A DNA stretch of 63,010 bases from Candidatus Ratteibacteria bacterium (GTDB lineage: Bacteria; CAIJMQ01), in assembly GCA_028715665.1 (NCBI GenBank), contig JAQURI010000001.1:1-63010 (forward strand). The letters run 5' to 3'. Made by a program: the position numbers and the translations under genes. Every line of letters begins with the position of its first letter. Position 1 is the stretch's first letter. A model generated the notes under the pieces. It made no database searches and had not been told where the DNA came from. It worked only from the letters and a program-made list of their open reading frames with translations. This document shows, in pieces, positions 2 through 55,934 of the stretch.

Positions 2-127
2 AACGGTATTACATTATTACAATCAGCAAATACATTATTAATAGATGTGGTTGGGCGGGGTACGCTCCTTCCCGTACTGAAGTACAGGGTATCCGCTACC
101 CCTGCACCCCACGGAGGAACACAATGA
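2..127 (+). CDS. 3' end of an upstream gene (partial, hypothetical)
   Basis: The frame is open from the window edge to TGA at 125-127, which overlaps the next ATG (ATGA). The C-terminus reads ...PAPHGGTQ. Confidence 0.3.
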   Translation, partial: NGITLLQSANTLLIDVVGRGTLLPVLKYRVSATPAPHGGTQ

Positions 128-5412: not shown

Positions 5413-6260
5413 GCACAAAAATATACAATGGATATTATATCGACCAGCGTGACCTGTTAGCCCTGAACAAGTTCAGCATGAAACTTAGAAAGGCGATACG
5501 GGAAAAACAGAAGGAACTATACGCAAGAAAACTGGTAGACCTCGCAACAGAGACCTATGATACCAGAACACTCATAAAAGCGGGATACTATAAGCCAGAA
5601 GAAGAAGATGAAAAGACCAGAGCCAATATAGCATGGTACGTAGCTTACTCGACGATAGAAGAGCGATATCAAAAAACACAGGGAACACTAACAAGAGACG
5701 TGGATTATGACCTGACATGCGATGTCACGGTAATCCCGACAAAAACTAAAATCTTGGCAATGGTACATGCAGAACAGCCGGAATTTCATAAAGTATTTGA
5801 AAATTTAAAAGGTGTTCATAAATATGCATACTGGGACGGGGATTCGGATATTCCAGATGGGTTAACTGAAAAAGAATTCAGTGACCGTGGAAAAGAATGG
5901 GATAAGGCAATGCCATCAGGTATCCCGTCAATGTATGGATTCAATATAGCGTGCACACAACAATTCCTGCCATGGATAGAACGGGATGTATTTTTTATGA
6001 TTGCTCCGATAGCACCACTGGAAGAGAGGGTGAAAGAGCACGCAAAAGAAATAGTATCAAGGCGATTCTTTAAACACACGATACAAGGGGACACAGCACC
6101 ATTAAACGAGATTGTTCCAAGGGTATCGGAATGGATAGATTATATGGAATCAGACGATGGCAAAAAGGAGATAGAGACCATAAAAGAAGAACTCAGAGCG
6201 TATTTAAAAAATCCACTGACACCAGAAGACCTTTTTGCAGAGCCGGAGGAAATAAAATGA
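5409..6260 (+). CDS. Hypothetical protein
   Basis: 283-aa ORF with an ATGA overlap to the upstream gene. No recognisable motif. Confidence 0.55.
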   Translation: MSTKIYNGYYIDQRDLLALNKFSMKLRKAIREKQKELYARKLVDLATETYDTRTLIKAGYYKPEEEDEKTRANIAWYVAYSTIEERYQKTQGTLTRDVDYDLTCDVTVIPTKTKILAMVHAEQPEFHKVFENLKGVHKYAYWDGDSDIPDGLTEKEFSDRGKEWDKAMPSGIPSMYGFNIACTQQFLPWIERDVFFMIAPIAPLEERVKEHAKEIVSRRFFKHTIQGDTAPLNEIVPRVSEWIDYMESDDGKKEIETIKEELRAYLKNPLTPEDLFAEPEEIK

Positions 6261-6715
6261 AATCAATAGGAGCAATACAAATAATAAAAAAAGAAGCAAG
6301 AGAAGGGAACGCGAGAGTATCGATAGAACTGGGAACGTTGTATATTCCTTTACAACAGAAAGACGCAGATTCAATAGAGCTAATCGAAGAGGTTCTTCAT
6401 GACCCTGAACTGGAATCAATGACGAATGGAGAACTAGTAGAACTACTCCAAGAAGCAATATTTCAACTTCAAATCGAACTGCGGTTAAATAAACGCATAA
6501 AACCACATGACGGAATCTATTTCAGCGACCTTATTAAAAGAAAAGCATATCAACACATCGAACGCTTAAGAAAAGGGCGAACAGATTCAGAAATAATTGA
6601 AATTTTTCAGGATGCAATGGTCTGGTTTAATATTATAGCCATTTTAAAATATACTGACGAGGTACAAATAAAAAAGAAGGCAGAGGAGAAAGATGACAAA
6701 ACAATGCCTAATTAA
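6257..6715 (+). CDS. Hypothetical protein
   Basis: The in-frame ATG at 6257 overlaps the upstream stop (ATGA). The longer track ORF from 6131 would overlap the upstream gene by 130 nt. Confidence 0.45.
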   Translation: MKSIGAIQIIKKEAREGNARVSIELGTLYIPLQQKDADSIELIEEVLHDPELESMTNGELVELLQEAIFQLQIELRLNKRIKPHDGIYFSDLIKRKAYQHIERLRKGRTDSEIIEIFQDAMVWFNIIAILKYTDEVQIKKKAEEKDDKTMPN

Positions 6716-7463
6716 CGATTGCAAGCGCGATTATTATAAACACGGTTTCTGTAAAAAGCATCATCCTTCTACCTGTGCAATAGACCTCTCATTGAGGTTT
6801 ACACTTTACGTACATATGCTATCCTATCGTATGGCAGGCGTTCTAGCTTCCATGAAAGAGGGTGGCATCCATCCAAAACACCGCATCCAGAACCATCATA
6901 AATTTTTCCTTGATAATATCGAGCCGGCAGACAGGGTGCTGGACGTAGGCTGTGGAGATGGTGTCCTGACCGCAGACATGGCGTCTAAGGCGTCTTTTGT
7001 CATAGGGATAGATATCAATGCCTCCCGTATAGAAACAGCAAAGGAACGTAATATGCGTGACAATACGAGATATTTCAGTGGGGATGCAACATCAATTAAA
7101 ATGATGGCTCTGGCATATTCACAGAAATATGAAGTAATAACAATGAGCAATGTGCTTGAACACATCGATAAAAGAATAGACTTCTTATCCTTCTGGGGAA
7201 AAAGGGCAAAGAAGTTACTGATACGAGTTCCAGCACTTGACAGGGGCTGGCTCCCGGTTTACATGAAGGAACTGGGAATGGATTACCGACTTGATAAAAC
7301 GCACCGGACTGAATATACAGTTGAAACTTTGAACAAAGAACTCAACGCAGCCGGGTTAACTCTAATCTCACACACGACAAATTTCGGAGAAATTCTTGCA
7401 GTGGTAAAAGAAGAAGAAAAAAAGGTAGAAAATGAAAACGATAATTATTTCAGACCTTCATAA
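6693..7463 (+). CDS. Class I SAM-dependent methyltransferase with N-terminal Cys-rich segment
   Basis: SAM-binding motif I VLDVGCGDGVLT. The N-terminus reads CLINDCKRDYYKHGFCKKHH. Confidence 0.8.
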   Translation: MTKQCLINDCKRDYYKHGFCKKHHPSTCAIDLSLRFTLYVHMLSYRMAGVLASMKEGGIHPKHRIQNHHKFFLDNIEPADRVLDVGCGDGVLTADMASKASFVIGIDINASRIETAKERNMRDNTRYFSGDATSIKMMALAYSQKYEVITMSNVLEHIDKRIDFLSFWGKRAKKLLIRVPALDRGWLPVYMKELGMDYRLDKTHRTEYTVETLNKELNAAGLTLISHTTNFGEILAVVKEEEKKVENENDNYFRPS

Positions 7464-8175
7464 TCGAGTTGATTGGGTAGAGCCTGCCCTTTCATCACTG
7501 CAATACGACAAAGTTATCTTTCTTGGAGATTATTTTGATGATTTTTACGATAATCTTGATGACATAAAGAAGGTTGCAAAATGGCTCAAACAATCTCTGC
7601 CAAAGCCAGACAGAATTCATCTGTGTGGAACGCATGACATGTGGTATAGGTTTCCTAATAATCCATACCTCCAAGCAAGTGGCAATACAATGCAAAAATT
7701 GAATGTAATAAACCAGATTCTTACGGATGATGATTGGAATTTATTGAGATTATACTATTATGAACAGGGTTTCCTGTTAACACATGCGGGAGTGCATTCA
7801 TTCCTTTTCGGAAATAATAATTTGAGTATACAAGAAATGCTTAATCTGATAAAATCTGAAACCGAGAAAGCATTGCAAGATGTCAAGAATGGTAAAATAA
7901 ATCCGTGTCTGGACGCTGGATTTGCCAGAAGAGGCGGGCAGGTAGTTGGAGGCATAACGTGGTTGGATTGGCATGATGAATTTGAACCAGTGCCTCATTT
8001 AAATCAGATAGTTGGACACACAGAGTTAAAGAAACCGGAAAAGAAAATCACAGAGAATAGCGAGAATTATTGCCTAGATACAAAAAATAAGCATATAGGA
8101 ATACTTAAGAATGGGATATTTACATTCGTGGGGTCAAGGGGTAAAAATCGCCCCGTGCCTTCAAGCTGGGGCTGA
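7432..8175 (+). CDS. Metallophosphoesterase (calcineurin-like); last ~15 codons lie in an IS left-end relic
   Basis: Motifs ISDLHNR, GDYFDD, GTHD, THAG and VGHTE. The 3' end (8130-8175) is encoded by the IS200/IS605 LE-like repeat. Confidence 0.8.
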   Translation: MKTIIISDLHNRVDWVEPALSSLQYDKVIFLGDYFDDFYDNLDDIKKVAKWLKQSLPKPDRIHLCGTHDMWYRFPNNPYLQASGNTMQKLNVINQILTDDDWNLLRLYYYEQGFLLTHAGVHSFLFGNNNLSIQEMLNLIKSETEKALQDVKNGKINPCLDAGFARRGGQVVGGITWLDWHDEFEPVPHLNQIVGHTELKKPEKKITENSENYCLDTKNKHIGILKNGIFTFVGSRGKNRPVPSSWG

Positions 8176-8198
8176 ATCATATCCCTTGGAATAGTAAC
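8130..8198 (+). repeat. IS200/IS605 left-end (LE) relic, copy A
   Basis: GGGGTCAAGGGGTAAAAATCGCCCCGTGCCTTCAAGCTGGGGCTGAATCATATCCCTTGGAATAG aligns nearly base for base with 14392-14462. It also aligns with the reverse complement of 20630-20697, the LE of the complete IS. The GC hairpin is retained. Confidence 0.7.
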
Positions 8199-8300
8199 GA
8201 TAGGGTTATTCTTCTTGGCTCAGAATCCTGCTTGCAACTGCCAGCAGCCCTAAAATCGGATACAGCGCATCGTATAGTTCTACCATAACTCAAATAGACA
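8199..8300 (-). pseudogene. Possible decayed 3' fragment of an IS200-type tnpA
   Basis: The minus-strand translation ..SYGRTIRCAVSDFRAAGSCKQ.. loosely parallels the TnpA C-terminus SYYVGTAGTVSAETIKMYIQNQ. It lies where tnpA sits relative to LE in the intact IS. The similarity is weak. Confidence 0.25.
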
Positions 8301-8346
8301 CTCAGTTTGGGCATATATCCTTTTCCGGTATGTACGTACAGAAGGC

Positions 8347-8379
8347 TAACCGATAGCTTTATCGTAATTATGTCACAAA
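8347..8379 (+). promoter_or_regulatory. Conserved promoter-like cassette, copy 1
   Basis: Sequence TAACCGATAGCTTTATCGTAATTATGTCACAAA. The palindrome TGTACGTACA (8331-8340) lies 6 nt upstream. Confidence 0.6.
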
Positions 8380-8390
8380 AGCATCTGATA

Positions 8391-8531
8391 ATGAAAAGCA
8401 AAGGTAGAAAAGATATAAAAAGAAAGCTAAACTTATTTCAAAAAGAAGCGTTAATTGCTATTGAAAACGCACGAGCCATTGTTACAATCCGGAAGAAAAA
8501 AGCAAGAAACGGCCACGAGGCAATAAAATGA
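8391..8531 (+). CDS. Small basic hypothetical protein
   Basis: First ATG downstream of cassette copy 1, with ATGA overlap to the following GT4 gene. An alternative start is the ATG inside the cassette (8370). Confidence 0.35.
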   Translation: MKSKGRKDIKRKLNLFQKEALIAIENARAIVTIRKKKARNGHEAIK

Positions 8532-9610
8532 TTCGCACCGGATTAAATTATCTTGTAGATTATACAGGAAACATGACCACAGACGCAAAACTCAACTATG
8601 TCGTCGAGTCCAGAGACTGGTCAATAAAAGAGGACGGAAAGGAAATTACAAGCCGGATGAATCGTGCAAAGAGCCGGTTCGATTTAAATCCGATTATGAA
8701 AAGCCGAATAACAACAACAGCAAAAGGCTTACGAAACAAAATCATTCATTTCGGCTCAGTGAACACATATTCAATTCCTCACGAATCGAATCGATGTGCA
8801 ATGTCATGGTTCCATATCACTCAGAACGACGAGAACCTGAAAAACATCAAGGAAATAGGAAAACATATCGAGATAATTCATACTACAAACCAGATAACCA
8901 GAAACATTTTCATCGGTATGGGTGCAGACGAAAGCAAAATAGTAACCATCCCCCTCGGCATAGACCTCACCCAGTTCAAACCTATATCCGAAGTAGATGG
9001 ATACTGGGAACTCAGGAACAAGCTAGGGATTCCGGCAGATGTGAAGGTAATAGGTAGCTTTCAAAAGGACTCAAATGGCTGGGATGAAAAAAAAGACAGC
9101 AGCCCAAAGTGGGTTAAGAATCCGGAGGCATTTATTCAAGTCGTAAAAAGGATACACAGGCAATATGATGGAAAAATATATGTGCTTCTTCTGGGGGCGA
9201 ACAGAAGCTATGTAAAAAATCAATTACAAACGCATGGGATACCATTCAAACATATTTATCTAAAAAATCACAAGGACGTAGCTATATACTATAAAGCAAT
9301 AGATATATATTTGGTAACATCTCGTTCTGAAGGTATGCCGAAAGCCATTTTAGAGAGCATGGCATCAGGGATTCCGATTATCAGTACCCCTGTTGGGATA
9401 GCAAAGGAAATAATAGAAGACGGTGAAAATGGTTTCCTCGTAGACATTGATGACACTACAGGAATGACAAATTACGCACTTGATATTTTGAACAGTGATT
9501 CGCTTGCACGCAGATTAAGGGTTGGGGGCATAGAAACAGCTAAAAAATATTCATGGAATATTATAGCGAAAAGATTTTATCATGAAATCTACAAGCAATT
9601 AGAGGAATAG
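8528..9610 (+). CDS. Glycosyltransferase, GT4 family
   Basis: Signature SRSEGMPKAILESMASGIPIISTPVGIAKEIIEDGENGFLV. Confidence 0.85.
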   Translation: MIRTGLNYLVDYTGNMTTDAKLNYVVESRDWSIKEDGKEITSRMNRAKSRFDLNPIMKSRITTTAKGLRNKIIHFGSVNTYSIPHESNRCAMSWFHITQNDENLKNIKEIGKHIEIIHTTNQITRNIFIGMGADESKIVTIPLGIDLTQFKPISEVDGYWELRNKLGIPADVKVIGSFQKDSNGWDEKKDSSPKWVKNPEAFIQVVKRIHRQYDGKIYVLLLGANRSYVKNQLQTHGIPFKHIYLKNHKDVAIYYKAIDIYLVTSRSEGMPKAILESMASGIPIISTPVGIAKEIIEDGENGFLVDIDDTTGMTNYALDILNSDSLARRLRVGGIETAKKYSWNIIAKRFYHEIYKQLEE

Positions 9611-9710
9611 CAAAATCCCGTCTTGTTTGCCTTCAGGACGTTTCGTTGTTCAAGTTACAGTTAGATTTATAATGCTTCATCTTCATGTGTGTTTATAAAG
9701 AGGAATATTG

Positions 9711-10262
9711 ATGAAAATTAAACCGGTATTGTATGTGATTGTGTTGATTGCAGCGATTGGGTTGAGCGGATGTGTTCAGAATCCGAAAATAGAACAAACA
9801 GTCCAAATCCCAGAATTAAAACAGGCAAGTGCTTCCATTAAAATAACTGAGATTACGGACATGTTGTTATCTTACGACCAGAGATATGTATCTTCATCGG
9901 ACGGACGGTTTAAAATGCTAAAATCTGTTGGGTGGTTTGACCCGAATTCAAACTATCAACAGGTAACAGTATATCACGACATCACATCAGCAGGTTTATC
10001 TAATCAGTTACATCTGTATTTATCAGCATTAGACAGTCCAACAGTCTTATCATTAAGCGGGAATGGGCTTCCTGCAAATTATGGTTATATGTCCACCACG
10101 TTCAACAACCAGAAAGGCTCAAATCAGATAAGAGTTTATGAAGTGTATATTGACTACAAAGTACCCGAAACTCAACCAGTCCCAACAGGGGAATTATATA
10201 TTAACGCGGGCGAAAACCGTTTAACTATTAACTTCGGGGCACCAACATCCGGTTTTATTTAG
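9711..10262 (+). CDS. Secreted lipoprotein-like hypothetical protein
   Basis: Signal peptide with lipobox-like LSGC. TTTATAAA lies about 30 nt upstream. The ATG at 9711 is preferred over the TTG at 9708. Confidence 0.55.
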   Translation: MKIKPVLYVIVLIAAIGLSGCVQNPKIEQTVQIPELKQASASIKITEITDMLLSYDQRYVSSSDGRFKMLKSVGWFDPNSNYQQVTVYHDITSAGLSNQLHLYLSALDSPTVLSLSGNGLPANYGYMSTTFNNQKGSNQIRVYEVYIDYKVPETQPVPTGELYINAGENRLTINFGAPTSGFI

Positions 10263-10269
10263 TTAATTT

Positions 10270-10300
10270 GGGGTCAAATGGTAGAGAACCATCAGCCCCC
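10270..10300 (+). repeat. Truncated IS200/IS605 LE relic, copy C
   Basis: GGGGTCAAATGGTAGAGAACCATCAGCCCCC shares GGGGT...GGTAGAGAA with the LE of the complete IS. It starts 8 nt after the stop of the upstream gene. Confidence 0.45.
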
Positions 10301-10361
10301 ACACGTTCAATTGACCTACACATTCAGGACTAACCAGAACTCTTTTGTACGTACAGCCGCC

Positions 10362-10394
10362 TGACCGATACCTTTATCGTAATTATGTTATCTC
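10362..10394 (+). promoter_or_regulatory. Conserved promoter-like cassette, copy 2
   Basis: Sequence TGACCGATACCTTTATCGTAATTATGTTATCTC. TGTACGTACA (10346-10355) lies 6 nt upstream, and the start codon at 10404 follows. Confidence 0.6.
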
Positions 10395-10403
10395 GTAAGT
10401 AAT

Positions 10404-11051
10404 ATGCATGATGCAATTATCATCGAAGTATCAGGGAAAAAGGTAGAAGTAGACCGGAAAATAGCACCTTTAGTACAGGAACTTAACCGGATTGGTCTTG
10501 AAACGACTCATTCATGTCAGGGCGGGAACAGGAAGTTTGATAAAGGCCGTGCTTACGTATCTATACAATTAGGAACAGACAGTGAATTTCATTATCATAT
10601 AGAAGAGAAAGTTCTTACAATCAGATGGAATTTACCGGAAAACAAGGGAAAATTCATGCCAGAAGAACCGATAGATGTATCATATATCGATACTGACTTC
10701 GGGAATTGGAAACTTGCAGAGGTCTTACCAATACTGGAACGGGAACAAAAAGCCCGGTTCGGGAACCTGTCTTATAAATACAAAATCAGACAGGCAGAAA
10801 TTATTCTGGCGTATGAAGACGCATATTCAAAGAGGTCTAGTGCCGGATATGTATCATTAGACGAACTGTACCTGAGATTAAGGTATAAATATAGGCTATC
10901 AATTGATGACTTCAGGGCGGCAATGATTGATTTTTATGACCGCAATCGGTTTAGTTTTTCATTCGCCCCCGGTTCGTGTAGCAGAACAGAAGTAAAGAAG
11001 TACGGATTTCCAGCAGGTGGAAAATGGATATATTACATTCAAAAAACATGA
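10404..11051 (+). CDS. Hypothetical protein
   Basis: 215-aa ORF immediately downstream of cassette copy 2. Confidence 0.55.
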   Translation: MHDAIIIEVSGKKVEVDRKIAPLVQELNRIGLETTHSCQGGNRKFDKGRAYVSIQLGTDSEFHYHIEEKVLTIRWNLPENKGKFMPEEPIDVSYIDTDFGNWKLAEVLPILEREQKARFGNLSYKYKIRQAEIILAYEDAYSKRSSAGYVSLDELYLRLRYKYRLSIDDFRAAMIDFYDRNRFSFSFAPGSCSRTEVKKYGFPAGGKWIYYIQKT

Positions 11052-11575
11052 CCGGAGAAATAAAAATAGCCGAACTCGATAGGGCTACAATATATCACAG
11101 ATGGCTTGAATTCTCATTAAATCTTGCAGACATTATGAACATAACTCCGGGAAGAAAAGCAAAGCTACAAGATGAAATTCAGAGGTTCATACAACAATAT
11201 AACTGCCCAAAAGATTTCGACGGTAGTGGAGAACGGCTATTTCCATATGCGGCAAGACCAATTCTTGGATGGGATTTTGGAGGGAATTCGACAGATACAG
11301 ACCATATTATCTGCGACCATGCAAACGAATACGTTGAGGAGTATGTCGTATATGACAAGAAGACGGGAGAGTTCAGGGGAAAATTTGCCGAACAAATATT
11401 AACATGCATCAGAGCCGGACTTGATGTAGCAAATCCAGAAATGCGAAGTGCCGGAGTCATAGGTTTCACTGTCGAAGATATCCGTAAAGCTTATAAAAGC
11501 CAGATTCCACAATGGCTAAATGAAGTTCTAGGGTTAAAAGGCGATGAGCCGGGAGATGACCCGGTATGGTTATGA
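11048..11575 (+). CDS. Hypothetical protein
   Basis: The ATG at 11048 overlaps the upstream stop (ATGA). 175 aa. Confidence 0.5.
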   Translation: MTGEIKIAELDRATIYHRWLEFSLNLADIMNITPGRKAKLQDEIQRFIQQYNCPKDFDGSGERLFPYAARPILGWDFGGNSTDTDHIICDHANEYVEEYVVYDKKTGEFRGKFAEQILTCIRAGLDVANPEMRSAGVIGFTVEDIRKAYKSQIPQWLNEVLGLKGDEPGDDPVWL

Positions 11576-12615
11576 AAAAAGTTCACATACTCTACGATAT
11601 GAAAGACACTCCATGGGGCGGAGGCAACCAGTTTTTCAAAGAATTGCGTCACGAATTACAAATGAACGAAAGGTACGCCGAAAAGATATCGGACGCAGAC
11701 GTAATTATATTTAGCAGCCATCATCAGATGGACAAGGTTATTCAGGCCAAAATAGATTATCCGGACAAACATTTTGTTCATCGTATGGGGTCAGTATTCA
11801 CATATGCCAGAGGTGATAAATATCTCGACCAGCTTGTTATCGAGATGAACCAAAACATAGCTGATGGAACGATATTTCAATCCAGATGGCAGGAAGAAAA
11901 ATTCCATGAAATCGGGCTGCCTATTGGTATAGAAACAATTATTCACAATGCACCGAATGAATATCTATTCAATTCAAAATCAAAAATCAAAGAACAGATA
12001 CATGGGCTGGAAGAGCACGAATTGATACAGGAAGGATTACAAAAAGAAAAAATACGGTTAATAACAACAGGCTGGTCAACCGGGGATATAAAAGGGTTTG
12101 ATATTTACAAATATCTGGATGAACATCTCGATTTCGATAAATATTCGTTTATCTTCCTCGGCAATTCAAAGGTAAAATTCAAAAACATCACGTCATTCCC
12201 GCCACAAATAAGCATGGTGGTGGCATCAATATTACAGGGCAGTGACATCTTCATTACTGCAACCCAAAACGACGCCTGTTCTAACTCGCTTGTGGAAGCA
12301 CTTCATTGTGGTCTCCCGGTCGTAGCAAGGAACAGCGGAGGACATCCGGAACTGGTCGGGAAAGCCGGGGTACTATTCGATGGGAAAGAAGATGTACTGG
12401 ACGCAATAGAGATGGTAAGCTCAAATTTAGAAATGTTCCGGGAACGGATACAAGTAGAGAGCATAAGTAAAATCGCTCAAAAGTATTATTCTTTCTGTAT
12501 GTACATCTTAGAAAACACTGTACCGAAACATTATGACAAATCAAGAATAACGAACATGAAAATAATGCAGGGAAAACAGAAAGCTGCGGAATTATTTAGG
12601 CGGGTAATATCATGA
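11566..12615 (+). CDS. Glycosyltransferase, GT4-like (GT-B C-terminal domain)
   Basis: Signature NSLVEALHCGLPVVARNSGGHPELVGKAGVLF. Confidence 0.7.
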   Translation: MVMKKVHILYDMKDTPWGGGNQFFKELRHELQMNERYAEKISDADVIIFSSHHQMDKVIQAKIDYPDKHFVHRMGSVFTYARGDKYLDQLVIEMNQNIADGTIFQSRWQEEKFHEIGLPIGIETIIHNAPNEYLFNSKSKIKEQIHGLEEHELIQEGLQKEKIRLITTGWSTGDIKGFDIYKYLDEHLDFDKYSFIFLGNSKVKFKNITSFPPQISMVVASILQGSDIFITATQNDACSNSLVEALHCGLPVVARNSGGHPELVGKAGVLFDGKEDVLDAIEMVSSNLEMFRERIQVESISKIAQKYYSFCMYILENTVPKHYDKSRITNMKIMQGKQKAAELFRRVIS

Positions 12616-13103
12616 AACCGGATAGAAGTTTAATAGGGAACGAATTTATTAAAGAGTGGATAAACAACAGCAAAACATACAGGAAGATACTGGAACACAG
12701 GAAGACATGCAAAAAACAACGCCGGGGCAAGTTTTGTATAGAGTGCACGGGTGGAGATTTAGAAGATGTTGTAATGGATTTTGAACACGAAATACTGAAC
12801 GAGATGAATTTTGAATGGGACTGTACACAAAGAACTGACAGATTCATGAGTTATATGCGTTTACGTGTAACTACAGTTATGCCGAAGAGCTTGCAGGACA
12901 CAGTATATAAAGAAATTATGGATTATATAAAAGACCTTAAAGGGAACAATGCACTAAGAACTGACATATTCATGATGTGTATGCGTTTACGGGCAACTTT
13001 AGCCGTGCCAAAGAGCTTGAAGGACGCAGCGGACAAGGAAATTATAGATTATATCACAGACTTAACCCATAAAGGCCAGAGCGAAGAAATTGAGGTATCA
13101 TAA
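12612..13103 (+). CDS. Hypothetical protein with internal 42-aa tandem duplication
   Basis: ATGA overlap upstream. Contains CKKQRRGKFCIEC and the repeat units FMSYMRLRVTTVMPKSLQD..EIMDYIKDL / FMMCMRLRATLAVPKSLKD..EIIDYITDL. Confidence 0.5.
   Translation: MKPDRSLIGNEFIKEWINNSKTYRKILEHRKTCKKQRRGKFCIECTGGDLEDVVMDFEHEILNEMNFEWDCTQRTDRFMSYMRLRVTTVMPKSLQDTVYKEIMDYIKDLKGNNALRTDIFMMCMRLRATLAVPKSLKDAADKEIIDYITDLTHKGQSEEIEVS
12831..13082 (+). repeat. Two diverged in-frame 126-nt tandem units
   Basis: AGAACTGACA recurs at 12831 and 12957 (period 126 nt). Roughly 70 percent identity by eye over about 105 nt. Confidence 0.7.
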
Positions 13104-14392
13104 TGGGAATAAGAAAGGAAGCACTAAAAACAATCGATAGGATAATAAGTTCAAAAGAATTCACGAGCACACTCGCCCCGGTTCTGCAATATTTACCAAT
13201 CGGGCAAATTAAAAAGAATATCATCAAGAACAAAATAGAATCGATTCAGGGATGCCGGATTGTCTCCTCATCACCGTACAGGGCAATAATCAATACCTCA
13301 AATACCTGTAATTACAGGTGCAAGATATGTGAAATTCATTTCTTGCACAAAAAATATCCGGTACACTATCCAAACGCCATAGACCTTATGGCGTTTAAAA
13401 ACATGAACCAGATTTTAGAGAATTTATATTTACTGGAGTTTTTCGGAAATGTGGGGGAGCCACTAACGAACCCGGATTTTGTGAATATTGTTAGATACAT
13501 CAAGCAAAGGTTTGGAACACGGTTGTTCCTGAACACGAACGGTTCCTTATTGAATTCATCAATGGCAAGTTCATTGATTACGGAAAAATTCGATGAAATA
13601 TTAATATCGTTACATGCAGCATCAGAAGAGACATACTCAAAGTTGATTGGAGGAGATTTTAAACGAGTAGTTGATAATATTGCAACCATATCAGCAATCA
13701 AGAAACAATACCGAGAAAAAAAACCGGAAATCGGGATTGCTTTTGCATTAAATCAAATCAATGAACGGGAAGTCGAAGATATTGTATGTCTGGCATACAA
13801 ACTAAAAGCAAATTATCTTCAAGTTTCTCATTATTATCATGGATTAAACGGAATGGAAAAAGATATATCTTTTATGAATATGAGTCCGTGTGGGAACTAC
13901 AAAGTCAATGCCATATATGATTTTGCCAAGTTCATAGGGCACTTAAAAAGAAAAGAACTAACGGTACTTCCAAAAAAGAGACCGTATTTGGATGAAGAAG
14001 AACCTGAGACCCCAAACTGCTATGCTCCATGGAATACGATAAAGATGGATGGGTGTATAGAATACCAGAACAGCCACTATATTTCCGTTTGTAACAGGAT
14101 AACTTTGTTCAGGTTAGATTATACAGAATTCGACTTCAATGGATTCCACGAGACTCTATGGAATCATCCATATCTCCAGTACATGAGAGCAACGGTAAAT
14201 TCAAAAGAACAGAATCCAATATGCCGGCTCTGCAAGAATCCAGAGAATCATAAATTAAGGAATACAGATAACGTAGAATATAGAAGACGCAGGGATGAAG
14301 CAATGCAGCAATTCTGGGAATTGGCTGAGAGTTACTTGAAAGCCCCGGAAATAAAAGGAATACACATCATTAAACAGAACCCATACACGTAG
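13103..14392 (+). CDS. Radical SAM protein with Cys-rich (SPASM-like) C-terminal region
   Basis: CNYRCKIC (CX3CX2C) near residue 70. The C-terminal part carries extra cysteines: CYAPW..DGC..CNR..CRLC. Confidence 0.85.
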   Translation: MGIRKEALKTIDRIISSKEFTSTLAPVLQYLPIGQIKKNIIKNKIESIQGCRIVSSSPYRAIINTSNTCNYRCKICEIHFLHKKYPVHYPNAIDLMAFKNMNQILENLYLLEFFGNVGEPLTNPDFVNIVRYIKQRFGTRLFLNTNGSLLNSSMASSLITEKFDEILISLHAASEETYSKLIGGDFKRVVDNIATISAIKKQYREKKPEIGIAFALNQINEREVEDIVCLAYKLKANYLQVSHYYHGLNGMEKDISFMNMSPCGNYKVNAIYDFAKFIGHLKRKELTVLPKKRPYLDEEEPETPNCYAPWNTIKMDGCIEYQNSHYISVCNRITLFRLDYTEFDFNGFHETLWNHPYLQYMRATVNSKEQNPICRLCKNPENHKLRNTDNVEYRRRRDEAMQQFWELAESYLKAPEIKGIHIIKQNPYT

Positions 14393-15701
14393 GGGTCAAG
14401 GGGTAGAAATCGCCCCGTGCCTTGAGGCCGGGGCTGAATCGTACCCCTTGGAATAGCAACACCATTGACCGATACCTTTATCGCAATTATGTTTCAAAGG
14501 ACTACAAAGAATGAAAAAAACATACCAGTTCAGGCTATACCCGACGAAAACCCAAGAAGTAACACTGACTAGGACTCTTAGTACGTGCAGGCACCTGTAC
14601 AATAATGCTCTTTCCGAGCGAAGGAAGCAGGCAACTTCAAACACAGTATTGAGACTGCTTCAGGTCTTCCCATGGGGAAAACCGGACTGGGTAACTAAGA
14701 ACGACCAGATGTTAAGCTTGACTGAAACAAAGACCGAGCATCAGTCCGAGGTTTACACACAGGTCTTACAGGATGTAATCAAACGTGTAGACAGGAGTTT
14801 CAAGAATTTCTTTAATGGCTTCGGCTATCCTCGTTTTCATGGCAGGAACCGGTACAACAGTTTCACGTATCCCCAACTGGGCTTCTCACTCAACTCCGGG
14901 AAATTAACCCTTTCAAAAATCGGCGGTATCAAGTTAATGCAGCACCGGAAAATAGAAGGAACAATCAAAACATGCACAATTAAAAAAGACATCGACCGAT
15001 GGTATGTTACTTTTTCCTGTGAAATAGAATCTCCCGTACCGGTTGAAATCAAAACCAGAACCGGGATAGATGTAGGCTTGATAGATTTAATCACATTAAG
15101 CAACGGTGAACAGGTAAAACCCCCGAAATTTCTGCGAGCATCAGAAAGCAAACTGATACAGGAACAGAGACGATTAAACCGTAAAAAGAAGGGTTCAGGA
15201 AAGAGGAACCGGCAAAAGATAATAGTAGCCAAGGTACACAGGAAAATCAGGAACCAGCGAAAAGACTTTGCTCATAAGCTATCGAGACAACTGGTCGATA
15301 GCTATGACCTGATAAAATTCGAAGATTTGCAAATAACGAATATGGTTCAGAACCATCATGTTGCAAAAAGCATAAGTGATGCTGGCTGGTATCAGTTGAT
15401 GAATTTTACGGACTACAAAGCAGGATACGCTGGTAAGTTCGTAGAATTCGTAAATCCATCCGGAACAAGTCAGACCTGTACCTGTGGTTTCGGTGTAGCA
15501 AAAGACCTGTCAGTAAGGATACACCGTTGTCCTTCCTGCGGTCTTGTAATGGGACGAGACCAAGTATCAGCGATATTGATAGAAAACAGGAATTCAGTAT
15601 ATACCGTAGGAACTACGGAAATCAAAGCCCGTCGAGGACTCTCACGAACAAGAGAGCCGATGCAGCGGGACGCCCAAGCCATTCAGGGTCGGGCAGTTCA
15701 C
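14392..15701 (+). mobile_element. tnpA-less IS200/IS605-family unit (LE + internal promoter cassette + tnpB + RE)
   Basis: The LE at 14392-14462 is homologous to the LE of the complete IS, with hairpin GCCCCGTGCC-TTGA-GGCCGGGGC at 14412-14434. An imperfect RE hairpin lies at 15672-15694, and the terminus AGTTCAC (15695-15701) is identical to the RE terminus of the complete IS. Joining the flanks gives a tidy stop-SD-start junction. Confidence 0.75.
14466..14498 (+). promoter_or_regulatory. Conserved promoter-like cassette, copy 3 (inside the tnpB unit)
   Basis: Sequence TGACCGATACCTTTATCGCAATTATGTTTCAAA. The tnpB ATG at 14511 lies 22 nt after the cassette's internal ATG. Confidence 0.6.
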
Positions 15702-17470: not shown

Positions 17471-18960
17471 AAAGCAAAATCGTTATGATATACCCGCCGA
17501 CAGGCAATATCGTAGACTATAACACCCCAACAGGAACTCTTTATGTGGCAACTTATTTACAGGAAAAGGGCTATGATGTGAGATTCATAGACTGTTCCGT
17601 TGAGGAAAACTGGCACGAAAGAGTATTGGAGGAAGTAAAAGATGCCCTATGTTTTGGCTCTTACTGCATGTCAATTCACATAAAGCATTTAATTCCGTTA
17701 CTAAAAGACGTAAAAAGAATCAATCCAGCGATAAAGACTGTATTGGGGGGAGCACATCCAACCCTGTTCCCGGAGCAGACGGCAGCAGACCCGCTAGTAG
17801 ACTTTGCTGTAATAGGGGAAGGAGAAGAGACAATGCTGGAACTGGTACAAATGATAGAAGCGGGAAAGACTGATTTCTCCGAGGTAAAAGGGATTTCATA
17901 TAAACACAAAGGGAAAGCCCTAACAACCCCTGCCCGTGAATTCATAGACATGGACACATTACCATTCGTGGACTGGAGTTTAATGAGCCAGAAAGCACTC
18001 GACAGCATGAAAACAAAAATAGCAAGAATACAAACAAGCAGAGGCTGTCCTTTTCATTGTAGTTTCTGCATCAACGTCGTCTCAAAAAACGGTAAGATGA
18101 GATACAGGTCTCCGCAGAAAGTCGTTGACGAAATAGAACATATGATAAAGACCTATGGAGTAAAGAGGTTTGGGATAAGAGATGAAGTTTTCCTGTTGAA
18201 CCGCCAGAAAGCAAAAGAAATAGCTCAGGGCATAATTGACAGAGGACTCGAAATAACATGGCTCGCTAATCCGCACGTTAAATTCCTGCGGGAAAGCTGG
18301 ATTGATGATGAATATCTTGATTTACTCAAACGGTCAGGATGCACAAAACTCCAATGTGGAGGAGAATCGGGAAACCAGAGGATATTGGACATGCTTCACA
18401 AGACAGTTACACCAGAAGACACCCTGAATTTTGTGAAACGAACAAAAAAGCACGGAATAATTTCACTCGTAGCATTCATGACAGGACTCCCGACAGAGAC
18501 CAGAGCAGAACAATTGCAAACATTAAAGCTGATATGGGGAATAATGGAGATAGCTCCGGAAACGTTCATTAACGGGGCAGCAATGTTCAGACCATACCCC
18601 GGAGGCGAATTATACGAACAGTGCGTGCGGGATTATAATTTAAAAATGCCAATAACATTCCGGGGCTGGATGGACGTAGAAACAATCGGGGGAACAAAAC
18701 CACCATGGATAAAAGACCTGTATTTCAGTCAGAACCTGTGGATGCATACTACGTTTGCCAGATACGAAAATCTTGGCCAGTTAACAGGTATCTGCAAGAA
18801 AATATATAAAAAATACGGGTTACTTCCAGCAATCGGTGCATATTTATGGGGAAAAGTCTCACATTATCGATTGAAGCATAACTATTATGGATTTCTGATA
18901 GACTTTTGGCTGCTTCAAGCATACTGGCATCAGCGCGGAGAAATTCCGGAATTAAGTTGA
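17467..18960 (+). CDS. B12-binding-domain radical SAM enzyme
   Basis: N-terminal cobalamin-binding-like domain (IVMIYPP...DVRFIDC) followed by SRGCPFHCSFC (CX3CX2C). Confidence 0.88.
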   Translation: MKSKIVMIYPPTGNIVDYNTPTGTLYVATYLQEKGYDVRFIDCSVEENWHERVLEEVKDALCFGSYCMSIHIKHLIPLLKDVKRINPAIKTVLGGAHPTLFPEQTAADPLVDFAVIGEGEETMLELVQMIEAGKTDFSEVKGISYKHKGKALTTPAREFIDMDTLPFVDWSLMSQKALDSMKTKIARIQTSRGCPFHCSFCINVVSKNGKMRYRSPQKVVDEIEHMIKTYGVKRFGIRDEVFLLNRQKAKEIAQGIIDRGLEITWLANPHVKFLRESWIDDEYLDLLKRSGCTKLQCGGESGNQRILDMLHKTVTPEDTLNFVKRTKKHGIISLVAFMTGLPTETRAEQLQTLKLIWGIMEIAPETFINGAAMFRPYPGGELYEQCVRDYNLKMPITFRGWMDVETIGGTKPPWIKDLYFSQNLWMHTTFARYENLGQLTGICKKIYKKYGLLPAIGAYLWGKVSHYRLKHNYYGFLIDFWLLQAYWHQRGEIPELS

Positions 18961-18988
18961 CCGATATATTTATAGTAATTATGTTTCA
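18958..18988 (+). promoter_or_regulatory. Conserved promoter-like cassette, copy 4, cut off by IS insertion
   Basis: TGACCGATATATTTATAGTAATTATGTTTCA is followed directly by the IS right end (GTGAACT on the + strand). Its TGA is the stop codon of the upstream gene. Confidence 0.55.
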
Positions 18989-18993
18989 GTGAA

Positions 18994-20172
18994 CTACCAC
19001 CCTACAAGTAGGGTGGCTTCCTGCTTCATCATGTCTATGCTTAGACCACTCTTGCAGGCTTCAATTCCCGCAGTTCCTGCGGTACATCTATCCAGAACTA
19101 CATTAGCTGCATTGGTATCTCTGTTCTCAACATTCCCACACTGGTTGCATCGAAATACTCTATCCCTCAATGTCATTTTCTGTTTGTTCCCACACACATG
19201 ACAGGTCTGTGATGTTCCCGCAGCTATACAGAGCTTAACCTGCTTCCCAGCTTCTTCCGCTTTGGATGCTGTTAAGGTCTGTAGTTGATACCATCCTGCG
19301 TCCATGATGGATTTCGCAAGATGATGATTCTGAACCATGTTTTTGATTTGTAAGTTCTCGAATGCGATTAAATCGAATCTGGTAACGAGTGTACGTGCAG
19401 TCTTATGAGCGAAATCCTTTCTCTGGTTTCGGATTTTCTGATGTATTTTTGCTACTGTGAGTTTCTGTTTCTTCCTGTTATTCGACCTGAGTTTCTTCTT
19501 TGCCAATCGTCTCTGTTCCTTTGCAAGTTTGTTTTCTGATTGTCTCAGGAACTTCGGGGGCTTGACCATTTCCCCGGTATTTAATGTAAGAAGGTCGGTT
19601 AATCCGACATCTATTCCGACCATTGTAACCACAGGTACTTTCTCAACTGCCTTATTCATCTCAACCGTGAATATCGCATACCATCGGTCAACGTCTCTCT
19701 TGATAGTACATGTTTTGATATTCCCCTTAATGTTCCGATGAAGGATTATCCGTATTGTTCCTATCTTTGAGAGATTGAGTTTTCCAGATTCAATTGTTGC
19801 TCCGCTCTGGGGATACGTGAATGAATCATACCTGTTCATTCCCTTGAATCGGGGAAAACCTGAACCACGAAAGAAGTTATCAATGCTCTTATTGACTCTC
19901 TTTAACACGTTCTGGAGAATCTGTGAATGTACTTCTTTCTGGAAGGAGTCTTTGCACGCTGCAAGCGTATTAGCTTGGTCTTCGTAATATATCCATTCTG
20001 GTTTGCCCCACGGGAATACCTGAAGAGTTTGTCTCAGTCTATTAAGCTCTATGCGTCGTTTCCGTTCTGCAAGAGCGTCGTTATAGAGATGCCTGCACGT
20101 GTTCAGAGTCTTGACCATAGTTACTTCTTGGTTCTTGGTTGGATATATACTGAACACGTAGGCTTTTTTCAT
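18994..20172 (-). CDS. tnpB: TnpB (IS200/IS605 OrfB, RNA-guided RuvC nuclease)
   Basis: RuvC residues in GIDVGLTDL, AFENLQI and NRDTNAANV; zinc finger CHVCG...CNQCG. Confidence 0.9.
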   Translation of the reverse strand: MKKAYVFSIYPTKNQEVTMVKTLNTCRHLYNDALAERKRRIELNRLRQTLQVFPWGKPEWIYYEDQANTLAACKDSFQKEVHSQILQNVLKRVNKSIDNFFRGSGFPRFKGMNRYDSFTYPQSGATIESGKLNLSKIGTIRIILHRNIKGNIKTCTIKRDVDRWYAIFTVEMNKAVEKVPVVTMVGIDVGLTDLLTLNTGEMVKPPKFLRQSENKLAKEQRRLAKKKLRSNNRKKQKLTVAKIHQKIRNQRKDFAHKTARTLVTRFDLIAFENLQIKNMVQNHHLAKSIMDAGWYQLQTLTASKAEEAGKQVKLCIAAGTSQTCHVCGNKQKMTLRDRVFRCNQCGNVENRDTNAANVVLDRCTAGTAGIEACKSGLSIDMMKQEATLLVGW

Positions 20173-20226
20173 TGGGTATTGTATATACCTATAGGTTTAT
20201 ATGTTTTGTGGTATATATAGAGCGAT

Positions 20227-20619
20227 ATGGGAAAAACAAGCTCATGCATCTACAACATCAATTATCACCTTATCTGGTGCCCAAAATATAGAAAACCAAT
20301 ACTTGAAGAACCGAAAGTCAAAACGTTTCTTGAAGACCAGTTACAGACAATAGCTGATGCGAAAGAATATGAAATTCTCGAACTTCAAGTCATGCCAGAC
20401 CATATTCACTTATTCATTTCTGCTAAACCGTTTGAAGCTCCAACTGATATTGTTAAGGTCTTTAAAGGGGTAACAGCATTACGGTTGTTCAAGAAGTTCC
20501 CTGAATTGAAAGAACAATATTGGAGAGGGAAACTATGGTCTCCAAGCTATTATGTCGGAACTGCCGGAACAGTATCAGCGGAAACTATTAAGATGTATAT
20601 TCAAAATCAGAAAGGATGA
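20227..20619 (+). CDS. tnpA: TnpA (IS200-type Y1/HUH transposase)
   Basis: HUH motif in PDHIHLFISAKP and catalytic-Tyr region SPSYYVGTAG. 130 aa. Confidence 0.9.
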   Translation: MGKTSSCIYNINYHLIWCPKYRKPILEEPKVKTFLEDQLQTIADAKEYEILELQVMPDHIHLFISAKPFEAPTDIVKVFKGVTALRLFKKFPELKEQYWRGKLWSPSYYVGTAGTVSAETIKMYIQNQKG

Positions 20620-20713
20620 GGGGCAGTATGTCGCTATGCAGGGGGGTACGATTCATCCACCGGACGAGTCCGGTGGTATTCTCTACCCCTCTACCCCACA
20701 TTATAAATACAAC

Positions 20714-31131: not shown

Positions 31132-32288
31132 ACAAGCTGGCATTCACCAACCCGATATACGTTACCCGTCCATTATTACCAGACCTAAAAGACCTGATGG
31201 CCAGACTACAGGAAGTATGGGATTCTCAATGGTTAACGAATTTCGGAGCACAGCACAAGCTCTTAGAACAGAGATTAACAAAGCTTTTGAAAGTACAGAA
31301 CGTTTCACTATTCAATAACGGGACGATAGCACTCATCACAGCCTGCCAGAGTCTGAGATTATCGGGCGAAGTAATAACGACCCCCTTCACATTCGCAGCC
31401 ACCCCACATGTTTTAACGTGGAACGGCATCAAACCCATTTTCTGTGATATCAATCCAGAGACGATGAACATAGACGAAACAAAGATTGAATCCATGATTA
31501 CCCCTGAGACCACAGGTATCCTTGGAGTTCATGTATTCGGCGTTCCATGCAACGTTAAGGTGATTCAGGACATTGCAGACAGGTACGGCCTTAAAGTCAT
31601 ATACGATGCTGCACATGCATTCCAGTGTGAAATAAACGATATCGGAATTGGAAATTTCGGGGACATTACGATGTTCAGTTTCCATGCAACCAAATTATTT
31701 CATACAGGGGAAGGTGGAGCACTTACATTCAAAGACCACAATCTAAAACAGAGACTTGATTTACTCAAGAATTTCGGGATAAAGAATGAAGAAGAAGTTG
31801 TCATGCCGGGCATAAACGGAAAGATGAATGAAATTCAGGCTGCACTGGGTCTAGCGGTCTTGGACATCCTGAATGAGGAACATATTAAAAGAGAGCGACT
31901 GCTTGAAGTGTACCGTGAACAACTCAGCGATGTGGATGGAATCACATTTCAGAAGGAGTTAAAATCAGTAACGCAGTCTAGTAATCAGTATTTCGTTATA
32001 AGAATCAATGAAAACCGCTTCGGAACATCAAGAAATACAGTCCATGACCGGCTAAAAAAGTATAATGTAATTGCCCGGAAATATTTTTATCCACTATGTA
32101 GCGATTATACCTGTTATCGTCATTTACCATCATCGAAAAAAGAGAATTTACCGGTTGCCAATATGGTAGTAAATGAAACACTGGCACTTCCATTATACGG
32201 AAGATTGACTGAAGATGACGTGATAAAGATTTGTGACATCATAAAACAGGAGTCGCCGTCAATCCCTGCACCCCACGGAGGACTATAA
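31128..32288 (+). CDS. DegT/DnrJ/EryC1-family PLP-dependent sugar aminotransferase
   Basis: YDAAHAF and SFHATKLFHTGEGGAL (PLP-lysine) motifs. 386 aa. Confidence 0.9.
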   Translation: MNKLAFTNPIYVTRPLLPDLKDLMARLQEVWDSQWLTNFGAQHKLLEQRLTKLLKVQNVSLFNNGTIALITACQSLRLSGEVITTPFTFAATPHVLTWNGIKPIFCDINPETMNIDETKIESMITPETTGILGVHVFGVPCNVKVIQDIADRYGLKVIYDAAHAFQCEINDIGIGNFGDITMFSFHATKLFHTGEGGALTFKDHNLKQRLDLLKNFGIKNEEEVVMPGINGKMNEIQAALGLAVLDILNEEHIKRERLLEVYREQLSDVDGITFQKELKSVTQSSNQYFVIRINENRFGTSRNTVHDRLKKYNVIARKYFYPLCSDYTCYRHLPSSKKENLPVANMVVNETLALPLYGRLTEDDVIKICDIIKQESPSIPAPHGGL

Positions 32289-55810: not shown

Positions 55811-55934
55811 TTTGGCAACTGGGCAAAACGTCATCATAAGTGGCAAGGTATTCCGAAATATATAAAAGGACATTATAGACGAAGAAAAAAAGACAGCGCC
55901 AGCACAGTCCGAGGAAACTGTATGTACAGTAACC

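What the first reader, a model, noticed from the sequence alone, without database searches (positions are those of the whole stretch)
8130..10300. IS left-end relics sit just upstream of two more cassettes; 4 of 8 cassettes are linked to IS200/IS605 ends
LE-like sequences begin at or within a few nt of the stop codons of the upstream genes, at 8130-8198 and 10270-10300. Cassettes follow 149 nt and 62 nt downstream respectively.

Copy A supplies the last ~15 codons (..GSRGKNRPVPSSWG) of the metallophosphoesterase ORF. It is followed by a possible decayed tnpA 3' fragment on the - strand.

Together with the tnpB unit (LE 4 nt from the cassette) and the IS inserted into cassette 4, this association is unlikely to be chance. 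Either this IS family targets sequences next to the cassette, or IS-derived DNA has spread the promoter cassette to new operons.
Basis: partly seen in the sequence, partly recalled or inferred. Interest (0 to 1): 0.6.

Follow-up and report, generated by a model that had tools for sequence, protein, structure and literature searches.

The report
Decayed transposon ends beside promoter cassettes
Two leftover left ends of IS200/IS605 transposons sit just upstream of two copies of a repeated promoter on an archaeal mobile element; they are ordinary decay products, and their link to the promoter is real but modest and has several different causes.

Summary
8130-8198 is a true solo left end (LE) of an IS200/IS605 element. 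It is 90% identical to the LE of the tnpB-only IS at 14392-15701 and shares the LE of related TnpB elements from other metagenomes. It inserted after TTCGT in the 3' end of a metallophosphoesterase gene and now encodes that gene's last 14 codons and its stop. 10270-10288 is only a 19-nt LE tip, but it is statistically real. The proposed tnpA fragment is not supported.

The cassette occurs 19 times, only on contigs C1, C2 and C7 of the genome bin, so it belongs to one mobile element.
- Thirteen of the 19 cassettes have no IS trace nearby.
- Six of ten LE-derived sequences lie within 220 nt of a cassette. Only about 15% of intergenic DNA does (nominal P about 0.002-0.014, post hoc).

The four linkages in the window arose in different ways: one solo LE, one LE stub, one IS that carries the cassette in place of its native promoter, and one IS inserted at a cassette's 3' edge. 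Insertion sites follow a short CGT motif, and the CGT motifs inside the cassette are never used, so targeting is unsupported. An LE-cassette fusion recurs in three further contexts, so IS-linked spread of a minority of cassettes remains possible.

Verdict: ordinary IS relics, with a modest side story of promoter capture.

The parts
8130..8198 (+). Relic A: solo, nearly full-length left end (LE) of an IS200/IS605 element, inserted after ..TTCGT. It provides the last 14 codons and the stop (8173-8175) of the metallophosphoesterase gene 7432-8175.
   Evidence: 90% identical to the IS1 LE. LE profile E=3e-13 to 2e-17. Folds as outer stem plus hairpin, but weaker than IS1 (-11.1 vs -19.9 kcal/mol). 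Orthologue C-termini diverge here.
8199..8330 (.). 132-nt spacer between relic A and cassette 1; origin unknown.
   Evidence: No match to TnpA, to RE or LE profiles, to other spacers, or elsewhere in the genome bin.
8331..8374 (+). Cassette 1: palindrome TGTACGTACA plus promoter-like core AACCGATAGCTTTATCGTAATTATGT.
   Evidence: Repeat family D1. 19 core copies, only on C1, C2 and C7. Absent from the syntenic contig L033.
9708..10262 (+). 184-aa ORF with a lipoprotein-like signal peptide, just upstream of relic B; absent from the syntenic contig L033.
10270..10288 (+). Relic B: 19-nt tip of an LE (GGGGTCAAATGGTAGAGAA), 7 nt after the stop of ORF 9708-10262. The rest of the LE is lost.
   Evidence: Consensus-tip scan: 4 hits in the window, 0.00 expected. 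No alignment beyond nt 19. No LE fold.
10346..10389 (+). Cassette 2 (palindrome plus core). In L033 the core follows the glycosyltransferase stop codon directly.
14392..15701 (+). IS1: tnpB-only IS. LE 14392-14461, cassette 3 core 14467-14493 inside the IS, tnpB 14511-15716, RE ending AGTTCAC at 15701. The empty site reads CACGTA|GGAGGAGGAACATAATG (stop, ribosome-binding site, start).
   Evidence: Pfam OrfB_IS605, Cas12f1-like_TNB and HTH. LE and RE conserved in relatives, which have a native promoter instead of the cassette. TnpB catalytic D/E/D intact.
18959..18988 (+). Cassette 4, interrupted after TTTCA by IS2.
   Evidence: Joining the flanks restores a normal cassette, 19 nt, then ATG.
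18989..20697 (-). IS2: complete IS605-type element. RE end at 18989, tnpB 18994-20172 (-), tnpA 20227-20619 (+), LE 20628-20697 (-), inserted after ..AATGT.
   Evidence: Pfam Y1_Tnp 4e-41 and TnpB domains. LE and RE profile hits.
45..110 (-). Solo LE of a second type (GGGGTGCAGGGG..). Its tip abuts ACGGAGGAACACAATG, the ribosome-binding site and start of ORF 124-1509.
   Evidence: LE profile E=2e-14. Identical module on C7:10109-10174 and related copies in L024 and L030.
32263..32274 (-). 12-nt LE-tip stub (GGGGTGCAGGGA), again directly before ACGGAGG and the ATG of ORF 32288-33133.

Best explanation
8130-8198 and 10270-10288 are decay products of two past insertions of IS200/IS605-family elements (the TnpB-carrying kind) into operon boundaries of an archaeal extrachromosomal element.

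Shown:
- Relic A is a nearly complete left end. The IS entered after TTCGT inside the last codons of the metallophosphoesterase gene, and everything beyond the LE has since been lost. The LE now encodes the protein's tail and stop.
- Relic B is only the first 19 nt of such an end.
- The same IS family is present on this element as two intact copies and at least eight LE-derived sequences.

Inferred:
- The relics have no present function beyond the borrowed coding tail.
- Their closeness to the promoter cassette has mixed causes. (a) In a tightly packed, mostly one-stranded gene map, insertions survive mainly in the short gaps at operon ends and gene starts, and that is where cassettes sit. (b) At least once an IS (IS1) replaced its own tnpB promoter with the element's cassette. 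(c) Recombination between the repeated cassettes can then delete tnpB and the RE, leaving LE-cassette fusions. That would explain why LE relics are seen but no RE relics.
For: - LE identity and family membership.
- Tip significance for relic B.
- Coding tail of the metallophosphoesterase.
- No RE relic in the genome bin besides the two intact IS.
- The related contig L033 is syntenic with 4022-12793 but lacks both [metallophosphoesterase + relic A + cassette 1] and [ORF 9708 + relic B]. These boundaries are therefore variable module junctions.
- All LE tips lie at gene ends or just before a ribosome-binding site and ATG.
- CGT precedes 11 of 18 tips, and CGT occurs about 1,290 times on C1, so target sites are not limiting.
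- The relic A hairpin is weakened (-11.1 vs -19.9 kcal/mol) and the relic B hairpin is gone, as expected for neutral decay.
- IS1's relatives carry a native promoter.
- The cassettes next to A, B, IS1 and IS2 have non-LE cassettes as nearest neighbours.
Against: - Enrichment near cassettes (6 of 10 against about 15% expected) exceeds what 'intergenic only' survival predicts. That null ignores that operon-internal gaps are less tolerant of insertion.
- About eight solo LEs against no solo RE is a strong asymmetry. Cassette-cassette deletion explains it only for the fused copies, not for relics A and B, whose spacers are unexplained.
- No empty-site allele was found for any of the four insertions, so the order of events is inferred.
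Confidence: 0.6

Rival explanations
1. IS-borne promoter spread. A cassette-carrying IS (LE-cassette-tnpB-RE, like IS1) transposes with TnpA supplied in trans, plants the promoter at new operon heads, and then loses tnpB and the RE. Relics A and B would be older, more decayed products of this process.
For: - IS1 has the cassette inside its ends and an intact TnpB.
- LE-cassette fusions with one shared junction (..AGC|GACCGATA) occur at C2:41197, L030:9145 and L027:540. Each has a different upstream flank and a different downstream gene, and the context changes exactly at the LE tip in L030 and L027.
- L030:5500 also has an LE 173 nt upstream of a cassette.
Against: - Only 4 of 39 cassettes are fused to an LE, and 30 of 39 show no IS trace.
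- No RE or tnpB remnant lies downstream of any fused copy.
- The closest IS1 relatives have native promoters.
- IS1 was found in only one context in three other runs.
- Relics A and B have unrelated 132- and 45-nt spacers and the long form of the cassette.
- There is no cognate tnpA for IS1 in the bin, and the IS2 hairpins differ.
Confidence: 0.2
2. Target-site preference. This IS family (through TnpA target choice or TnpB-guided homing) preferentially lands next to the cassette.
For: - IS2 sits exactly at the 3' edge of cassette 4, so its RE-flanking guide would be complementary to the cassette.
- Enrichment of LE traces near cassettes.
Against: - The motif 5' of LE tips is just CGT (11 of 18), which is common everywhere.
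- Junctions lie 218 and 93 nt upstream of the cassette core, inside an IS, and 3 nt downstream of the core, in both orientations.
- The CGT motifs within the cassette (TATCGT, TACGT) are never used.
- Four of ten LE traces are 2-8 kb from any cassette.
- Other cassettes lack the ..ATGT that flanks the IS2 LE.
Confidence: 0.07
3. Exaptation. The LE hairpin has been kept because it does something for the host element, for example as a 3'-end or stability structure for the upstream transcript, an insulator in front of the promoter, or a structured leader.
For: - About eight LE-derived sequences against no solo RE.
- The type-2 LE in reverse orientation forms a repeated module (promoter-like AT box, LE, ACGGAGGAACACAATG) in front of at least five different genes in C1, C7, L024 and L030.
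- LE tips sit at stop codons.
- Relic A keeps its outer stem through a G-T pair.
Against: - The relic A inner hairpin has lost about 9 kcal/mol, and relic B and two other stubs have lost the hairpin altogether.
- Archaeal termination is not known to need hairpins (general knowledge).
Confidence: 0.15

Closest known systems
IS200/IS605 family insertion sequences (IS605/IS608/ISDra2 type with tnpA + tnpB; IS1341-type tnpB-only derivatives)
   Same: Subterminal hairpins at an LE and an RE that differ from each other. No terminal inverted repeats and no target duplication. Insertion 3' of a short motif. Y1 TnpA and RuvC-type TnpB. RE overlapping the tnpB 3' end.
   Different: Relics A and B are LE-only remnants with no transposase, no tnpB and no RE. 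IS1 has swapped its native tnpB promoter for the host element's repeated promoter cassette.
PATEs / MITE-like non-autonomous derivatives of IS200/IS605 (LE + RE without genes)
   Same: Gene-less IS200/IS605-derived sequence in intergenic DNA.
   Different: PATEs keep both ends and stay mobilisable. Here only the LE survives, and no RE was found within or near the relics. The candidate mini-element at C2:41100-41248 turned out to be an LE fragment, a cassette and a 2-codon stub.
IS elements that create or carry promoters for neighbouring genes (outward or hybrid promoters of bacterial IS; general knowledge)
   Same: Physical coupling of a transposon end with a promoter at an operon head.
   Different: The promoter here is the host element's own 27-nt cassette (19 copies). 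It was taken up by one IS and is not an ancestral IS promoter.
PeSL-type repeated promoter/stem-loop boundary modules of T4-like phages
   Same: Short repeated regulatory modules at gene-block boundaries that coincide with gain and loss of genes between related elements.
   Different: No evidence here that the cassette or the LE mediates the exchange; the LE is transposon-derived.

Membership tests
IS200/IS605 family (for relic A, 8130-8198) | Sequence homology to the left end of elements that encode TnpB and/or TnpA | tested here: met
   90% identical to the IS1 LE. Aligns with the LEs of IS2, L013, L014, L016, L017, L032 and L036, each next to tnpB or tnpA.
IS200/IS605 family (for relic A, 8130-8198) | Subterminal imperfect hairpin, conserved in shape while its sequence covaries | tested here: met
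   Inner stems GCCCCG/CGGGGC, CCACCGG/CCGGTGG, CCCCGTAC/GTACGGGG, CTCCG/CGGAG and CGCAT/ATGCG fall at the same place. DNA folds have z-scores of -2.2 to -5.2 for most copies. RNAalifold on an unrefined alignment did not recover the hairpin.
IS200/IS605 family (for relic A, 8130-8198) | Insertion 3' of a short conserved target, with no target-site duplication and no terminal inverted repeats | tested here: met
   CGT lies at or 1 nt from the tip in 11 of 18 LEs (relic A: TTCGT). The joined flanks of IS1 and IS2 give seamless sites without duplication, and LE and RE termini are unrelated.
IS200/IS605 family (for relic A, 8130-8198) | Presence of tnpA and/or tnpB and a right end (a complete element) | tested here: not met
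   No TnpA or TnpB similarity and no RE in 8199-8530. It is a remnant, not an element.
IS200/IS605 family (for relic B, 10270-10288) | Recognisable LE with hairpin | tested here: inconclusive
   Only the 19-nt tip matches (2 mismatches; 0.00 expected). The profile score is not significant on its own (1.3 bits), and there is no LE fold.
TnpB (OMEGA) RNA-guided nuclease, for the IS1 and IS2 genes | HTH + OrfB_IS605 (RuvC) + Zn-ribbon TNB domains with the catalytic D/E/D | tested here: met
   Pfam PF12323, PF01385 and PF07282 in both. D187, E271 and D350 are invariant in the alignment. Guide RNA and nuclease activity were not testable here.
PATE/MITE derivative of IS200/IS605 | Both an LE and an RE retained around a short gene-less core | tested here: not met
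   No RE-like sequence besides those of IS1 and IS2 in the genome bin.

The most novel reading that the evidence does not exclude
In this lineage of archaeal extrachromosomal elements, IS200/IS605 units have captured the element's own promoter cassette. LE-cassette units then act as portable promoters that re-head operons, while LE hairpins are retained as parts of promoter or leader modules. This would be transposon-driven rewiring of transcription units on an archaeal mobile element.
Probability: 0.15. Interest if true: 0.6.

Novelty: new member of a known kind. Interest (0 to 1): 0.35.

Why it matters
On their own the two relics are routine: they show that IS200/IS605 elements have been active in the sugar-modification gene cluster of an uncultured archaeal mobile element, and that one insertion rewrote the tail of a phosphoesterase.

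Three patterns around them are of some wider interest.
- An intact TnpB element runs from the host element's own repeated promoter.
- An LE-promoter fusion is found in several contexts.
- LE relics are present but RE relics are absent.

If these patterns hold in complete genomes, they would give a concrete case of a transposon and its carrier exchanging regulatory parts. TnpB elements are reported to be shared among Methanoperedens and all of its extrachromosomal elements (bioRxiv 10.1101/2023.08.02.551345).

Tried and rejected
- A tnpA remnant in 8199-8330: blastx against the window's TnpA and Pfam on all minus-strand frames found nothing.
- RE relics: a profile built from six REs found only the two intact REs in the bin, plus contig-edge REs in L027 and L031.
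- Homology between the spacers of relic A and L030:5500, or between the relic A spacer and anything else in the bin: only the cassette part matches.
- A mini-element (LE-cassette-RE) at C2:41100-41248. Rejected because 'ATTCAC' is a 6-nt coincidence, and the cassette is followed by ATG AAC TGA and T-runs.
- A cassette derived from the native IS promoter. The resemblance is limited to a generic CGATA..TATC box with similar spacing, which is not convincing.
- Exact-pattern scans found nothing for the LE in viral contigs, or for the cassette in viral contigs and genome contigs.
- A viral-contig search with ORF 10404-11051 found no relatives.
- Contexts of the closest metallophosphoesterase orthologues are not syntenic downstream, so they say nothing about the pre-insertion site.
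- Other contexts for IS1 and IS2: the identical proteins occur only in the same context in other runs.
- Rfam: only the five tRNAs.
- RNAalifold on the raw LE alignment gave an uninformative consensus.
Full report
**Setting**

The window is the whole of contig C1 of a 1.43-Mb, 149-contig archaeal genome bin.
- The 27-nt cassette core GACCGATAnCTTTATCGTAATTATGTT occurs 19 times (up to 6 mismatches allowed): 8 on C1, 7 on C2 and 4 on C7. It occurs nowhere else in the bin. These three contigs therefore form one separate element; earlier notes of this scan call it a mobile element of methane-cycling archaea.
- Each cassette lies 14-30 nt upstream of a start codon.
- Many copies carry an upstream palindrome, TGTACGTACA.
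- The closest relatives of the IS proteins and of the phosphoesterase are annotated as Methanoperedens or Methanosarcinales.

**The two intact IS elements**

Pfam assigns the proteins as follows:
- ORF 14511-15716 (+) and ORF 18994-20172 (-) are TnpB (HTH_OrfB_IS605, OrfB_IS605, Cas12f1-like_TNB).
- ORF 20227-20619 (+) is an IS200-type Y1 transposase (4e-41).

The two TnpBs are 55% identical, and they are the only copies in the bin.

Five IMG/VR loci and one ENA contig encode TnpBs 61-78% identical to TnpB1. They carry the same left end, GGGGTCAAGGGGTAGAGAAAACCCCG..CGGGGATGAATCGTACCCCTTGGAATAG, and the same right end..GCAGCGGGACGCCCCC..GGGGGTAATTCAC. This fixes the boundaries:
- IS1 = 14392-15701 (+).
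- IS2 = 18989-20697 (-).

Joining the flanks gives seamless sites:
- IS1: CACGTA|GGAGGAGGAACATAATG, which reads as stop codon, ribosome-binding site and start.
- IS2: ..GTAATTATGTTTCA|ACATTATAAATACAACATG, a normal cassette followed by 19 nt and an ATG.

There is no target duplication and there are no terminal inverted repeats.

The LE folds as an outer stem (CAAGGGGTA/TACCCCTTG) around an inner hairpin. The sequence of the hairpin covaries between copies. Within each IS the LE and RE hairpins resemble each other. TnpB1 has the invariant D/E/D residues.

**Relic A (8130-8198)**

- It is 90% identical to the IS1 LE over 69 nt.
- It scores E=3e-13 to 2e-17 against LE profiles.
- It lies after TTCGT, the same flank as in L014.
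- It provides the last base of V233, codons 234-247 and the stop of the metallophosphoesterase (PF00149).
- In 18 orthologues the conserved ..GILENGxF.. is followed by short variable tails beginning IE... The window's protein switches to GSRGKNRPVPSSWG exactly at the LE tip.
- Its fold is weaker than that of IS1 (-11.1 vs -19.9 kcal/mol).
- Nothing in 8199-8330 resembles TnpA, TnpB, an RE, or any other sequence in the bin. The proposed tnpA fragment is therefore not supported.

**Relic B**

- Only 10270-10288 is LE-like.
- The consensus tip was taken from outside relatives. It hits four sites in the window (A, B, IS1 and IS2), with 0.00 expected.
- The profile alignment stops at nt 19, and no LE fold remains.
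- I read it as a real but almost completely eroded LE (about 85% confidence).

**Comparison with a related element**

Metagenome contig L033 is syntenic with 4022-12793. It differs in two places:
- It has a 148-nt segment with a small ORF in place of window 7418-8514, which holds the phosphoesterase, relic A, cassette 1 and a small ORF.
- Its cassette 2 core follows the glycosyltransferase stop codon directly. It lacks ORF 9708-10262, relic B and the palindrome.

Both relics therefore sit at the 3' edge of gene modules that vary between relatives. The direction of change (gain here or loss there) cannot be told without an outgroup.

**Catalogue on the whole element**

LE-derived sequences on C1, C2 and C7:

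| Position | Nature |
|---|---|
| C1:45-110 (-) | solo LE, type 2 |
| C1:8130 (+) | relic A |
| C1:10270 (+) | relic B |
| C1:14392 (+) | LE of IS1 |
| C1:20697 (-) | LE of IS2 |
| C1:32263-32274 (-) | 12-nt stub |
| C2:41203-41248 (-) | 3' two-thirds of an LE, fused to a cassette |
| C2:55245 (+) | partial LE |
| C7:7687-7700 (-) | stub, 77 nt from a cassette, opposite orientation |
| C7:10109-10174 (-) | solo LE, type 2 |

- RE-like sequences are found only in the two intact IS.
- LE tips are about six times more frequent on these contigs than on the rest of the bin.
- Six of the ten LE-derived sequences lie within 220 nt of a cassette, counting IS2 through its RE.
- Thirteen of the 19 cassettes have no IS trace.
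- In ten related metagenome contigs, 3 of 20 cassettes have an LE within 175 nt upstream.
- With a rough ORF map, 15.5% of intergenic nucleotides lie within -220..+15 of a cassette. This gives nominal binomial P values of 0.0003 (6 of 8), 0.007 (4 of 6) and 0.014 (4 of 7). My own figure for 6 of 10 is about 0.002.
- These values are post hoc. The events are few and partly related. The null also ignores that gaps inside operons tolerate insertions less well than operon ends do.
- The four linked cassettes in the window are consecutive and lie within 11 kb of a variable gene cluster.

**Targeting**

- The bases 5' of the LE tips are CGT in 8 distinct copies, and CGT plus one further base in 3 more, of 18.
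- CGT occurs about 1,290 times on C1.
- The cassette itself contains TATCGT and, in the palindrome, TACGT. No LE junction is at either position.
- Junction positions and orientations relative to the cassette differ in every case.

I find no support for targeting.

**IS-borne spread**

- IS1 has the cassette 4-6 nt after its LE and 17 nt before the tnpB ATG.
- All seven relatives examined have a 65-125-nt native promoter region there instead. The cassette in IS1 is therefore an acquisition.
- A fusion in which the LE ends ..AGC and the core GACCGATA follows directly occurs at C2:41197, L030:9145 and L027:540. The upstream flanks and downstream genes are unrelated in the three cases.
- These three are each other's nearest neighbours among 38 cassettes. 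The cassettes next to A, B, IS1 and IS2 have non-LE cassettes as nearest neighbours.
- No tnpB or RE follows any of the fused copies.
- The identical IS1 and IS2 proteins occur only in the same context in three other runs.

So an LE-cassette unit has reached several contexts, possibly by transposition followed by cassette-to-cassette deletion. This concerns at most about 10% of cassettes and does not explain relics A and B.

**Conclusion**

The finding is real. It describes ordinary IS200/IS605 decay products at variable operon junctions. The association with the promoter cassette is modest and has mixed causes. The most interesting residue is the promoter capture by IS1, the recurring LE-cassette fusion, and the presence of LE relics without RE relics.

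A preprint on Methanoperedens elements reports TnpB genes in all of their extrachromosomal elements but does not use the word 'promoter' in its main text (bioRxiv 10.1101/2023.08.02.551345).

Noticed in passing
window 45-110 (-) with 111-126; C7:10109-10190; L024:30-95 and 8199-8267; L030:11766-11834: A second LE type (GGGGTGCAGGGGTAGCGGATACCCYGTACTTCAGTACGGG..CCCCGCCC) occurs in reverse orientation. Its tip is fused to ACGGAGGAACACAATG, the ribosome-binding site and start codon of at least five different genes. An AT-rich promoter-like box lies on its inner side. C1:1-126 and C7:10050-10190 are identical over more than 120 nt. It looks like a repeated promoter-hairpin-RBS module built on an IS end.
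   Followed up: partly
window 32263-32274 (-): A 12-nt LE tip (GGGGTGCAGGGA) lies inside the last codons of ORF 31128-32288. It sits directly before ACGGAGGACTATAATG, the start of ORF 32288-33133.
   Followed up: partly
window 18989-19010 (-): Because IS2 sits at the 3' edge of cassette 4, the sequence 3' of its RE (its presumed guide) is TGAAACATAATTAC.., complementary to the conserved end of most cassettes. The other cassettes lack the ..ATGT that flanks the IS2 LE, so cross-targeting is untested.
   Followed up: no
window 8331-8341, 10346-10356, 53562-53571, 55919-55928, about 28850; C2, C7 and many metagenome cassettes: The palindrome TGTACGTACA (variants TGCACGTACA, TGTATGTACA) lies 6-8 nt upstream of about half of the cassette cores. 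It could be an operator for a regulator encoded by the element.
   Followed up: no
window 15702-15716: The TnpB1 reading frame runs 15 nt past the RE end into the flank. This makes the protein 8-12 residues longer than its relatives, and its stop overlaps the ATG of the next gene (15716).
   Followed up: partly
C2:55245 (+): A partial LE of a third type (GGGGTTAAGGGATGAGCGCAAACTCCCGGCTTCAGCCGTGGGAG..), similar to L030:5500 and to the LE of a tnpA-carrying IS in L032 and L024. It is 4 kb from any cassette.
   Followed up: no
L030 (Ga0180732_1001389) 7243-9797: A block of small genes in a related element, each headed by a cassette variant ending AATTAAGTT rather than AATTATGTT. This may be a second promoter class.
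   Followed up: no
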